Source: Escherichia coli (GTDB lineage: Bacteria; Pseudomonadota; Gammaproteobacteria; Enterobacterales; Enterobacteriaceae). Taken from it: 64,000 bases of DNA. Both the position numbers and the translations under genes were made by a program. The stretch is taken from NCBI RefSeq assembly GCF_003790525.1, contig NZ_CP033635.1. One strand, 5' to 3'. Under the pieces are notes generated by a model that saw only the letters and a list, made by a program, of their open reading frames with translations, had not been told where the DNA came from and did not search any database. Numbering within the stretch: the stretch's first letter is position 1; the number at the start of each line of letters is the position of its first letter. This document shows positions 31,512 to 32,744 of this stretch, piece after piece.

Positions 31512-32744
31512 ATGTACTGCAATGAATTAAAAGAATTTGCGCAAGAGCAGGAACAAAAACTTATCAGTGCGCTTGCTGATACCAGAGAGCACCCGTCCCC
31601 CGATGGTGAAACAAGAAGCCGGGATAATTATCAACGGGATTACGCGCGTATTCTGTATTCATCATCATTTCGCAGGCTGCAGGGAAAGATGCAACTTTTT
31701 GAAATTGATCCTGAAAAATTCAACAGAAACAGATTAACGCACAGTCTTGAGGTTGCTCAGATCGCCCGAAGTATCGCGTCAGACCTCAAACTGATTAACC
31801 CGGTGGTGGTTGAACTGGCAGCGCTGGCGCATGACATCGGAAATCCTCCTTTCGGTCATTCCGGTGAAAAACTGCTTAATGAACTGTCTGAAGAAATCGG
31901 CGGCTATGAAGGTAATGCACAGGCGCTACGTATCCTGAGAAAACTGGAGAAGAAATTTTCATACTGCAACGGATTAAATCTGACTCACCGTAGTTTACTT
32001 TCGGTTGTTAAGTATCCCATCCCCCGCGCTGCAGCTACTGCCGGCAAGTTCATTTATGATGATGATTACTATTTTTACATTAACCTGCTTGCTGAAAATC
32101 AGCTCGATTTGAATCCCGGAGAGAAAACGATTGATGCGCAGATAATGGATCTCGCGGATGAGATTGCCTACGCCGCGCATGACCTGGAAGATGCCCTTAG
32201 CAGGAACATGGTCACGATTGAAGATATTGAATATGAGTTTCAGATTTCTGACGAATTCCGGGGAGCGAGGGAACAGTTCAGGGAAATCGTTACTCAGTCG
32301 AGAAACACCGCTTTTCAGGCTAACTTACTGAAAACCTCAGAAGAATTTGCCATCATATTCCGCAAGGAGTTAACTTCAAATATTGTCAATCGCCTCGTTG
32401 CAGATATTTCTGTAGTAACGAACCTGAATGGTTTTCAGGAACTGGGGTTCGGGAAACTGAATGCGTTATCCGAAGGACTCAAAAAACTTCTCTTTAAAGT
32501 CATCATGCGAAAACGTAATATCCTCACCTATGAGTTCAGGGGAAATAAAATAATCAGGGATTTATATGACTTTTACAATGAAGGAGAGAATTATAAATTT
32601 CTGCCTCCTGAACTTAAATTCACCTTACCCCAACCAGATTCCTGTATATTTGAAATCAGCAAAAAACGAGCAGTGGTTGACTATATTTCAGGTATGATGG
32701 ATACATTTGCAGTCAAGGAATGGGAAACTCACTGTCTGAAGTAA
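31512..32744 (+). CDS. dGTPase-like dNTP triphosphohydrolase (HD domain)
   Basis: RLTHSLEVAQIARSIA...LAALAHDIGNPPFGHSGE matches Dgt HD motif; start taken at ATG 31512 preceded by aaggaag; about 410 aa. Confidence 0.75.
   Translation: MYCNELKEFAQEQEQKLISALADTREHPSPDGETRSRDNYQRDYARILYSSSFRRLQGKMQLFEIDPEKFNRNRLTHSLEVAQIARSIASDLKLINPVVVELAALAHDIGNPPFGHSGEKLLNELSEEIGGYEGNAQALRILRKLEKKFSYCNGLNLTHRSLLSVVKYPIPRAAATAGKFIYDDDYYFYINLLAENQLDLNPGEKTIDAQIMDLADEIAYAAHDLEDALSRNMVTIEDIEYEFQISDEFRGAREQFREIVTQSRNTAFQANLLKTSEEFAIIFRKELTSNIVNRLVADISVVTNLNGFQELGFGKLNALSEGLKKLLFKVIMRKRNILTYEFRGNKIIRDLYDFYNEGENYKFLPPELKFTLPQPDSCIFEISKKRAVVDYISGMMDTFAVKEWETHCLK

What the first reader, a model, noticed from the sequence alone, without database searches (positions are those of the whole stretch)
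31512..32744. Stand-alone short dGTPase-like HD hydrolase next to IS3: likely dNTP-depletion defence gene
The HD-domain motif matches the Dgt family, but the gene is stand-alone in an accessory cluster rather than in the housekeeping dgt context. Short dGTPase homologues have been reported to defend against phage by depleting dGTP. IS3 sits about 120 bp upstream and may affect its expression.
Basis: partly seen in the sequence, partly recalled or inferred. Interest (0 to 1): 0.5.

Follow-up and report, generated by a model that had tools for sequence, protein, structure and literature searches.

The report
Island-borne stand-alone dGTPase-like enzyme
This is an intact accessory E. coli gene for a dGTPase-family HD enzyme, carried on a defence island and by prophages in other bacteria. 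It is probably a nucleotide-depleting anti-phage gene of an already known kind, but it belongs to a branch nobody has tested.

Summary
Window 31512-32744 (+) is an intact 410-aa HD + HD_assoc protein (RefSeq WP_000271619.1). All catalytic residues are present. A defective IS3 ends exactly 120 bp upstream.

The gene is accessory: 317 of 5,426 complete E. coli genomes carry it, and its GC is 43%. It lies on a chromosomal island with a type I R-M system, an AriA/OLD-like ATPase pair and a MazG-like gene.

Relatives at 54-82% identity sit next to prophage integrases (Proteus, an Stx2c phage), inside a lambdoid prophage (Edwardsiella), and on integrative islands beside a NACHT protein or R-M systems. 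None has a conserved partner gene. dN/dS is 0.07-0.09.

It is not housekeeping Dgt: it scores 156 bits against a cut-off of 405. It is also not the validated Sp-dGTPase clade or Clover CloA. It fails NCBI's anti-phage dGTPase models (284 against 400), is 29% identical to Sp-dGTPase, and forms a separate clade (bootstrap 95). The closest solved structures are 9VWA, 9VWC and 9VWG, at 53% identity.

The defence reading is therefore well supported by context but inferred, not shown. The effect of IS3 on expression is unresolved. Verdict: ordinary, a new member of a known kind.

The parts
31512..32744 (+). CDS for the 410-aa HD-domain dNTP/dGTP triphosphohydrolase-family protein (WP_000271619.1). 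Metal and catalytic residues are H77, H107, D108, H116, E119 and D216.
31392..31511 (+). The 120-bp native upstream region kept between the IS3 end and the start codon. It is homologous to the upstream regions of the Proteus and Edwardsiella orthologues. It contains an AGGA ribosome-binding site at 31502-31505 and an unused in-frame ATG at 31491.
31450..31479 (+). Candidate sigma-70 promoter (inferred only): TAGCCA, 18-nt spacer, TATTCT. This is 8 of 12 matches here and 9 of 12 (TAGACA...TATTCT) in Edwardsiella. It lies inside the most conserved upstream block.
   Evidence: Read. It is below the threshold of the promoter scan, which reported nothing here.
30135..31391 (+). IS3 copy, 1257 bp. 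The terminal inverted repeats are intact. orfA is frameshifted by a 1-bp deletion. orfB is 30495-31361. There is no clean 3-bp target duplication (ACT on the left, CAT on the right). It is inserted in the roughly 222-bp divergent intergenic region between the TS-like gene and the dGTPase gene.
32845..33170 (+). Truncated small membrane-protein ORF 100 bp downstream. It is 189 aa (WP_000517677.1) in strains without the resistance insert. It is not conserved next to homologues elsewhere and has no family match, so it is not considered a partner.

Best explanation
The gene encodes a single-protein, SAMHD1/Dgt-like HD-domain deoxynucleoside-triphosphate triphosphohydrolase carried as cargo of mobile elements. 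Here that element is a chromosomal defence island. Elsewhere it is the integrase-adjacent or immunity-adjacent accessory-gene (moron) slot of temperate phages.

The most likely mechanism is this. The enzyme oligomerises like its relatives. It hydrolyses dGTP, and possibly other dNTPs, to deoxynucleoside plus triphosphate. During infection this starves the incoming phage's DNA polymerase of substrate, which gives defence, or superinfection exclusion when a prophage carries the gene. It acts alone, with no conserved partner gene.

Shown here:
- The gene is intact and under purifying selection.
- The fold and catalytic residues are conserved.
- The distribution is accessory and mobile-element-linked.
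- The clade is separate from housekeeping Dgt, Sp-type dGTPase and CloA.

Inferred, not shown:
- Catalytic activity and substrate specificity.
- The anti-phage phenotype.
- What keeps the enzyme from being toxic.
- Which promoter drives it after the IS3 insertion.
For: Family and fold:
- PADLOC dGTPase E=1.5e-109.
- TIGR01353 above its cut-off.
- HD + HD_assoc.
- AF2 pLDDT 95.8. The top fold match is the anti-phage Sp-dGTPase 9P8W, followed by VC1979 and CloA.
- Catalytic residues conserved.
- The guanine-contacting Tyr of CloA (D242...Y246) has a counterpart in D216...Y220.

Accessory and foreign:
- Present in 317 of 5,426 complete E. coli genomes.
- GC is 42.8%.

Island context:
- Type I R-M and an AriA/NsnB-like ATPase pair about 7 kb away.
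- A MazG-like gene and an XRE-ImmA pair with a PD-Lambda-2_B-like hit.

Other contexts, all mobile or defence-linked and none with a conserved neighbour:
- Proteus prophage, next to the integrase.
- Edwardsiella lambdoid prophage, between exo/recT and cI.
- Stx2c-converting phages, next to the integrase, 64% identity.
- K. variicola CP4-like island, beside a 2,092-aa NACHT protein.
- Dickeya tRNA island, directly after the integrase.
- Yersinia ruckeri islet.
- Cyanobacterium, near a type III R-M and HigBA.

Selection: dN/dS is 0.07-0.09 against the Proteus and Edwardsiella orthologues.

Precedent: stand-alone dGTPases protect against phage by depleting dGTP (Tal et al.), and Sp-dGTPase is active on its own in vitro (Clover paper).
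Against: - No member of this clade has a published phage-defence test in the searchable library.
- The protein fails NCBI's anti-phage dGTPase models: NF041026 scores 284 against 400, and NF003701 scores 252 against 383. Sp-type representatives pass them.
- It is only about 29% identical to Sp-dGTPase. Tal et al. found that homologues below 45% identity were next to defence genes in only 10% of cases.
- The PADLOC HMM is not discriminating. Housekeeping E. coli Dgt also hits it at 237 bits.
- Two of the contexts examined are ambiguous: Cronobacter and L013.
- All E. coli copies are about 99.9% identical and share the IS3 junction, so E. coli itself gives one independent observation.
- The IS3 insertion could have silenced the gene.
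Confidence: 0.7

Rival explanations
1. It is a mobile-element-serving dNTPase rather than a host-defence gene. The enzyme would reshape dNTP pools for the element's own benefit. For example, it could remove a canonical dNTP so that a modified base is used, as phage dNTPases such as DatZ or the SPO1-type dTTPase/dUTPase do. In the E. coli island it could then work with the adjacent thymidine-hypermodification pair (TS-like hydroxymethylase + aGPT-Pplase3) and the MazG-like gene.
For: - The divergently transcribed neighbours are a TS-like protein and an aGPT-Pplase3/ADDT protein (PF18746, E=5.5e-90).
- Before the IS3 insertion the two promoter regions shared about 222 bp.
- A MazG-like gene lies 5 kb away.
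- The clade is carried by temperate phages.
- It matches phrog_21998, a family of unknown function.
Against: - None of the nine other contexts has a TS-like, aGPT or MazG neighbour.
- In E. coli the TS/aGPT pair is in 229 genomes but the dGTPase is in 317, so they occur apart.
- Prophage positions next to the integrase or cI are typical of lysogen-expressed accessory genes, not replication-module genes.
- No DNA kinase (5-HMUDK), which hypermodification needs, was seen.
Confidence: 0.1
2. It is a second, non-defensive dNTP-pool-sanitising paralogue. It would contribute to mutation-rate or replication control, as proposed for E. coli Dgt or the Caulobacter dNTPase, and hitch-hikes on mobile elements without a role against phage.
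For: - The family is very large: 9,833 cluster representatives at E<=0.001. Most members have unknown or housekeeping roles (Tal et al.).
- The protein scores about as well against several housekeeping equivalog models (233, 218 bits) as against the anti-phage models (284, 252), and it is below every cut-off.
Against: - Distribution is patchy and accessory, and the gene is repeatedly placed in prophage accessory-gene slots and defence islands across genera.
- From established knowledge, not checked here: E. coli already has a core dgt.
- The clade is well separated from E. coli Dgt.
Confidence: 0.12
3. The gene is silent or decaying in this island. The IS3 insertion cut it off from its native control region, and the intact ORF reflects only the recent clonal spread of the island.
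For: - IS3 sits inside the conserved upstream region, and homology in Proteus and Edwardsiella continues beyond the insertion point.
- The promoter scan found no site at 9 of 12 matches or better in the remaining 120 bp.
- E. coli copies are about 99.9% identical, so selection within E. coli cannot be judged.
- The island is heavily rearranged: IS3, an IS10 remnant and a 13.4-kb resistance insert that truncates the next ORF.
Against: - The ORF is full-length with all catalytic residues.
- The best-conserved upstream block, with a TAGCCA-N18-TATTCT promoter-like site and the ribosome-binding site, lies on the gene side of IS3.
- The junction is kept in 317 genomes from diverse hosts.
Confidence: 0.08

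Closest known systems
Sp-dGTPase-type anti-phage dGTPases (Tal et al. 2022; Shewanella putrefaciens CN-32, E. coli G177; NCBIfam NF041026/NF003701; PDB 9P8W)
   Same: - Single-gene HD + HD_assoc dNTPase.
- Same fold; 9P8W is the top Foldseek hit.
- Same catalytic residues.
- Located in a defence island near a type I R-M system.
- The expected mechanism, dGTP depletion, is the same.
   Different: - 29% identity overall, and 49% only over the N-terminal 115 aa.
- About 40-50 aa shorter: 410 aa against 452-455 aa for the E. coli Sp-type proteins.
- Fails both curated models that Sp-type representatives pass.
- Separate clade in the tree, bootstrap 95.
- No experimental test found.
PDB 9VWA / 9VWC / 9VWG, 'deoxyguanosinetriphosphate triphosphohydrolase-like protein', 402 aa
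   Same: - Closest solved relative: 52.8% identity over the full length with the same N-terminus.
- Same clade, bootstrap 86.
- 9VWC and 9VWG carry a His-to-Ala change at the position of catalytic H116, which suggests a mechanistic study.
   Different: - Source organism and publication could not be identified.
- The entries are absent from the fold library, which stops at April 2026.
- Proteins of that subgroup have a conserved unknown 240-aa ORF 10 bp downstream in two metagenomic contigs. The E. coli gene lacks it.
Clover system (CloA dGTPase + CloB nucleotidyltransferase; Yamaguchi et al. 2025)
   Same: HD dGTPase effector with the same fold (TM about 0.8 to CloA) and the same catalytic dyad.
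   Different: - 22-23% identity.
- No adjacent nucleotidyltransferase here or in any related locus.
- CloA is inactive alone and is controlled by dTTP and p3diT. Nothing indicates that here.
Housekeeping E. coli Dgt (505 aa; PDB 4X9E; NF003429)
   Same: Same superfamily, the same HD...HD...D metal site and the same H/E dyad.
   Different: - 22-23% identity.
- 156 bits against a cut-off of 405.
- About 95 aa shorter.
- Accessory rather than core, and foreign in GC.
- Well separated in the tree.
Human SAMHD1
   Same: By analogy, an HD dNTP triphosphohydrolase that restricts viruses by dNTP depletion (Tal et al.).
   Different: No direct sequence match was obtained here. The resemblance is functional and at fold level only.

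Membership tests
dGTP/dNTP triphosphohydrolase superfamily (TIGR01353; Pfam HD + HD_assoc) | HD domain with the H...HD...D metal ligands and the H/E catalytic dyad | tested here: met
   H77, H107-D108, D216, H116 and E119 are invariant or nearly invariant in a 68-sequence alignment. Pfam HD E=5e-14.
dGTP/dNTP triphosphohydrolase superfamily (TIGR01353; Pfam HD + HD_assoc) | C-terminal HD-associated helical domain and a whole-protein score above the curated cut-off | tested here: met
   HD_assoc E=2.8e-14. TIGR01353 scores 316 bits against a cut-off of 152. The fold matches all solved dGTPases at probability 1.0.
dGTP/dNTP triphosphohydrolase superfamily (TIGR01353; Pfam HD + HD_assoc) | Hydrolysis of dNTP to deoxynucleoside plus triphosphate | not testable with these tools
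   Needs purified enzyme.
Sp-type anti-phage dGTPase (NF041026 / NF003701; Tal et al. 2022) | Score above the curated NCBIfam cut-offs | tested here: not met
   284 against 400 and 252 against 383. Sp-type representatives P0220 and P0193 score 495-560 and pass. Four other members of this clade also fail.
Sp-type anti-phage dGTPase (NF041026 / NF003701; Tal et al. 2022) | At least 45% identity to Sp-dGTPase, the range in which Tal et al. saw defence association | tested here: not met
   29% in the structure-based alignment to 9P8W. The phmmer alignment splits into two stretches totalling 167 bits.
Sp-type anti-phage dGTPase (NF041026 / NF003701; Tal et al. 2022) | Groups with validated members in a phylogeny | tested here: not met
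   In a neighbour-joining tree of 151 sequences, the query's 54-member clade (bootstrap 95) excludes all eight Sp-type representatives.
Sp-type anti-phage dGTPase (NF041026 / NF003701; Tal et al. 2022) | Located next to known defence systems | tested here: met
   Type I R-M, an AriA-like ATPase pair and an XRE-ImmA pair lie within about 15 kb. Relatives sit in prophages and defence islands.
Sp-type anti-phage dGTPase (NF041026 / NF003701; Tal et al. 2022) | Catalysis-dependent phage protection and dGTP depletion | not testable with these tools
   Needs plaque assays and LC-MS.
PADLOC 'dGTPase' system | Significant, near-full-length hit to PDLC02374 | tested here: met
   365 bits over HMM positions 19-369 of 395. 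Calibration shows that housekeeping Dgt also hits at 237 bits and Sp-type proteins at about 490 bits. The hit alone does not prove a defence role.
Clover (CloA + CloB) | Adjacent CloB nucleotidyltransferase gene | tested here: not met
   The neighbours are IS3 and a small membrane ORF with no family hit. No nucleotidyltransferase is present in nine related loci.
Housekeeping E. coli-type Dgt (NF003429) | Equivalog score above the cut-off, and core-genome presence | tested here: not met
   156 bits against 405. Present in only 317 of 5,426 complete genomes.

The most novel reading that the evidence does not exclude
The roughly 400-410-aa clade containing this gene and the 9VWA protein is a separate lineage of phage- and island-borne HD dNTPases. 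Its substrate or trigger may differ from Sp-dGTPase and CloA: it could act on a dNTP other than dGTP, or on a modified dNTP. In the E. coli island it may once have worked with the divergently transcribed thymidine-hypermodification pair (TS-like + aGPT-Pplase3) and the MazG-like gene as a nucleotide-pool or DNA-modification module.
Probability: 0.1. Interest if true: 0.6.

Novelty: new member of a known kind. Interest (0 to 1): 0.3.

Why it matters
If the defence role is confirmed, E. coli would have a fourth distinct dGTPase-family lineage, alongside housekeeping Dgt, the Sp-type dGTPase and CloA. This one is spread by temperate phages, including Stx2c phages, and by a chromosomal island. In 123 complete genomes that island also carries floR, tet(A), strAB and sul2 immediately next to the gene. 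This is an example of phage-defence and antibiotic-resistance cargo travelling together.

It would also show that curated 'anti-phage dGTPase' models miss a whole clade, and that the PADLOC model does not separate defence enzymes from housekeeping ones. Otherwise the finding is a routine annotation.

Tried and rejected
1. I looked for the publication and organism behind PDB 9VWA, 9VWC and 9VWG. Three literature searches found nothing. The fold library stops before these entries were released.

2. I tested whether the downstream 189-aa ORF or the upstream TS-like/aGPT pair is a partner. Neither is conserved next to homologues in nine other contexts. The small ORF has no PADLOC, PHROG or NCBIfam hit. 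Both were rejected as partners.

3. I tested whether the PADLOC hit proves a defence role. Calibration shows that E. coli Dgt also hits strongly, so I did not use the hit as evidence of function.

4. I checked whether this is the E. coli dGTPase validated by Tal et al. (strain G177). It is not. The N-terminus is different, identity is 46% over 110 aa, and G177 is a 455-aa Sp-type protein.

5. The promoter scan of the 120-bp upstream region reported nothing at its threshold. I read a weaker conserved site by eye. An outward IS3 promoter could not be established.

6. The inverted-repeat tool did not report the IS3 ends. I read them from the sequence.

7. One lookup of a more distant clade member (P0124) returned only a 1.4-kb contig with no context.

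Full report
**What is there**

The six-frame ORF list shows one long ORF at 31491-32744 (+). The second in-frame ATG, at 31512, is the real start. It is preceded by AGGA at 31502-31505. It is the start used by RefSeq for WP_000271619.1, 'deoxyguanosinetriphosphate triphosphohydrolase family protein'. It also aligns residue for residue with the N-terminus of the closest solved homologue.

The 410-aa product has:
- Pfam HD and HD_assoc domains.
- A TIGR01353 score of 316 bits against a cut-off of 152.
- A PADLOC dGTPase hit at E=1.5e-109.

In an alignment of 68 relatives, the metal ligands H77, H107, D108 and D216 and the catalytic dyad H116/E119 are invariant or nearly invariant. The AlphaFold2 model is confident, with mean pLDDT 95.8. 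All its best PDB matches are dGTPases and dNTPases.

**IS3**

The element runs from 30135 to 31391 and is 1257 bp long. It starts TGATCTTACCC and ends GGGTAGGATCA. Exactly 120 bp separate it from the start codon. A 1-bp deletion frameshifts its orfA, and RefSeq flags it as frameshifted. The 3-bp flanks differ (ACT on the left, CAT on the right).

The 120 bp that remain are homologous to the upstream regions of the Proteus and Edwardsiella orthologues. Their homology continues past the insertion point. With IS3 removed in silico, the left flank shows weak similarity to that continuation. IS3 therefore looks like a simple insertion into a roughly 222-bp divergent intergenic region.

The most conserved block lies on the gene side of IS3. 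It contains a weak promoter-like site: TAGCCA at 31450-31455, an 18-nt spacer, and TATTCT at 31474-31479. In Edwardsiella the equivalent site is TAGACA-N18-TATTCT. This is my reading of the alignment; the consensus scan reported nothing in this region. Whether IS3 changes expression cannot be decided from sequence.

**Where the window comes from, and the neighbourhood**

The region is 99.9-100% identical to chromosomal islands of many E. coli strains.
- 317 of 5,426 complete genomes carry the gene.
- 123 genomes carry the exact version seen here.
- One plasmid carries it.

The gene's GC is 42.8%. From left to right, the island holds:
- A WYL regulator.
- An AriA/NsnB-like ATPase with a partner gene.
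- A type I R-M system (hsdSMR).
- A MazG-like gene.
- A small ORF followed by an XRE-ImmA protein with a PD-Lambda-2_B-like hit.
- A TS-like + aGPT-Pplase3 operon.
- IS3.
- The dGTPase gene.

Compared with strain cq9, synteny stops at window position 33136. There a 50-bp palindrome cuts the downstream 189-aa membrane ORF. A 13.4-kb insert follows, carrying papA/papB/papI remnants, ISCR2, floR, tet(A), strAB and sul2.

**Is it housekeeping, a validated defence type, or something else?**

| Test | This protein | Comparison |
|---|---|---|
| NF003429 (E. coli Dgt model) | 156 bits, cut-off 405 | fails |
| NF041026 (anti-phage dGTPase) | 284 bits, cut-off 400 | Sp-type P0220 and P0193 pass, at 495-560 bits across the two anti-phage models |
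| NF003701 (anti-phage dGTPase) | 252 bits, cut-off 383 | as in the row above |
| Other housekeeping equivalog models | 233 bits or less | all fail |
| PADLOC PDLC02374 | 365 bits; 350-369 across this clade | Sp-type 488-490 bits; E. coli Dgt 237 bits |

I identified the Sp-type representatives P0220 and P0193 by their 59-73% identity to the N-terminal sequences of the five Sp-type genes that Tal et al. synthesised. Four other members of the query's clade also fail the anti-phage models. Because housekeeping Dgt also hits the PADLOC model strongly, that hit does not discriminate. I recalled the E. coli Dgt sequence from memory and corrected it against PDB 4X9E.

Identity from the structure-based alignment is 29% to Sp-dGTPase (9P8W), 29% to V. 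cholerae VC1979, 30% to the Thermus dNTPase, and 22-23% to CloA and to E. coli Dgt.

I built a neighbour-joining tree of 151 sequences over 391 columns with 100 bootstraps.
- The query sits in a 9-member enterobacterial group (bootstrap 100).
- That group joins the 9VWA group (bootstrap 86).
- Both lie inside a 54-representative clade (bootstrap 95).
- That clade excludes E. coli Dgt and all eight Sp-type representatives.

The E. coli dGTPase that Tal et al. validated (strain G177, 455 aa) is an Sp-type protein, not this one. So the gene is neither housekeeping Dgt nor a member of either validated defence lineage. It is a distinct clade. Its closest solved relatives are 9VWA, 9VWC and 9VWG at 52.8% identity. 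I could not find a publication for these entries.

**Evidence for function from context**

Relatives are scattered across Enterobacterales, cyanobacteria and Campylobacterota. I examined these contexts:

| Organism | Identity | Context |
|---|---|---|
| Proteus mirabilis | 82% | last gene of a prophage, next to the integrase |
| Edwardsiella tarda | 80% | lambdoid prophage, between exo/recT and the N/cI immunity region |
| Stx2c-converting phages | 64% | unannotated ORF convergent with the integrase |
| Klebsiella variicola | 75% | CP4-like island, beside a 2,092-aa NACHT protein |
| Dickeya dadantii | 56% | first gene after a tRNA-island integrase |
| Yersinia ruckeri | 54% | islet with an integrase fragment and an ORC/Cdc6-like ATPase |
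| Aliterella (cyanobacterium) | 53% | near a type III R-M system and HigBA |
| Cronobacter dublinensis | 67% | variable spot beside a QueC / deoxyribosyltransferase-kinase pair |

No neighbouring gene recurs, so the protein acts alone. dN/dS against the Proteus and Edwardsiella orthologues is 0.07-0.09, so the protein is maintained by selection. This pattern is what is expected of a lysogen- or island-expressed defence or superinfection-exclusion gene. It does not fit a core metabolic enzyme.

**Mechanism**

By homology, the protein should coordinate a metal through H77, H107, D108 and D216. It should hydrolyse dNTP to deoxynucleoside plus triphosphate using H116 and E119. The D216...Y220 pair corresponds to CloA D242...Y246. 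In CloA, Y246 contacts the guanine base. This is compatible with dGTP as substrate but does not prove it.

Stand-alone Sp-dGTPase depletes dGTP and blocks T7. It is active without a partner in vitro, whereas CloA needs dTTP and is held in check by CloB. With no partner gene here, a Sp-like, self-contained mode is the best guess. The trigger and the means of avoiding toxicity are unknown.

**Rivals**

1. The enzyme could serve the mobile element's own nucleotide metabolism, perhaps together with the adjacent thymidine-hypermodification pair. Against this, that pair is absent from every other context. In E. coli it occurs in 229 genomes while the dGTPase occurs in 317.
2. It could be a non-defensive pool-sanitising paralogue. 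The family is very large. The distribution of this clade argues against it.
3. It could be silenced by IS3. This remains open.

**Verdict**

This is a real, intact gene of a known kind of single-protein defence candidate, in a branch that has not been validated. It is ordinary in concept and modestly new in detail.

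Noticed in passing
window 28111-30032 (-): A two-gene operon with a 4-bp overlap. The first gene is a divergent thymidylate-synthase-like protein (326 aa; Pfam PF00303 6e-25; PHROG thymidylate-synthase families 1.6e-43; far below every NCBIfam thymidylate-synthase cut-off). The second is an aGPT-Pplase3 / amino-acid:DNA-transferase protein (314 aa; PF18746 E=5.5e-90). This is the phage-type thymidine-hypermodification module sitting in a bacterial chromosome. It is present in 229 complete E. coli genomes. Older RefSeq records still call the second gene 'hypothetical protein'; more recent ones already name it alpha-glutamyl/putrescinyl thymine pyrophosphorylase clade 3. 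It may be more unusual than the dGTPase.
   Followed up: partly
window 33133-33182: A perfect 50-bp palindrome: CTGATGAATCCCCTAATGATTTTGATAAAAATCATTAGGGGATTCATCAG. From memory, it looks like two IS10/Tn10 outer ends back to back, the remnant left by Tn10 'nearly precise excision'. It forms the junction between the truncated ORF downstream of the dGTPase and a truncated papA. It marks the left edge of the 13.4-kb resistance insert.
   Followed up: no
window 33137-46585: A 13.4-kb insert that is absent from strain cq9. It carries papA/papB/papI remnants, ISCR2 fragments, floR, tet(A)/tetR, strAB (aph(6)-Id and aph(3'')-Ib), sul2 and a defective IS1. The identical arrangement occurs in 123 complete E. 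coli genomes from humans, pigs, cattle and poultry. Resistance cargo has been inserted inside a defence island.
   Followed up: partly
window 16094-18612 (-), downstream of hsdS: A 540-aa ABC/OLD-type ATPase follows hsdS directly in the type I R-M gene row. Its best PADLOC hits are PDC-M55A, NsnB, HEC-03B and AriA. A 298-313-aa partner with no hit follows it. This may be a PARIS-like or Nsn-like system embedded in the R-M operon.
   Followed up: partly
window 26703-28108 (+) and 26293-26559 (-): A 108-aa ORF overlaps by 4 bp a 360-aa XRE-HTH + ImmA/IrrE metallopeptidase protein (PADLOC PD-Lambda-2_B, E=8.7e-30; also RmrA, CapP and Lit-like peptidase hits). This looks like a toxin plus protease-antitoxin or sensor pair. 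Next to it is an 88-aa MazG-like gene.
   Followed up: partly
L015 1796-2518 and L016 1380-2102 (metagenomic contigs): In the subgroup closest to the PDB 9VWA protein (P0072, 74% identical to 9VWA), a conserved ORF of about 240 aa starts 10 bp after the dGTPase gene in two independent contigs. It has no Pfam or PADLOC match. That subgroup may be a two-gene system, unlike the E. coli gene.
   Followed up: partly
L014 6001-7227 (Stx2c-converting phage Stx2c_EH0430, LC727889.1): An unannotated 408-aa homologue (64% identity) lies next to the integrase of Stx2c-converting phages. A related cluster (P0046) has 455 member sequences from E. coli. A sister version of this gene is therefore common cargo of Shiga-toxin prophages.
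   Followed up: partly
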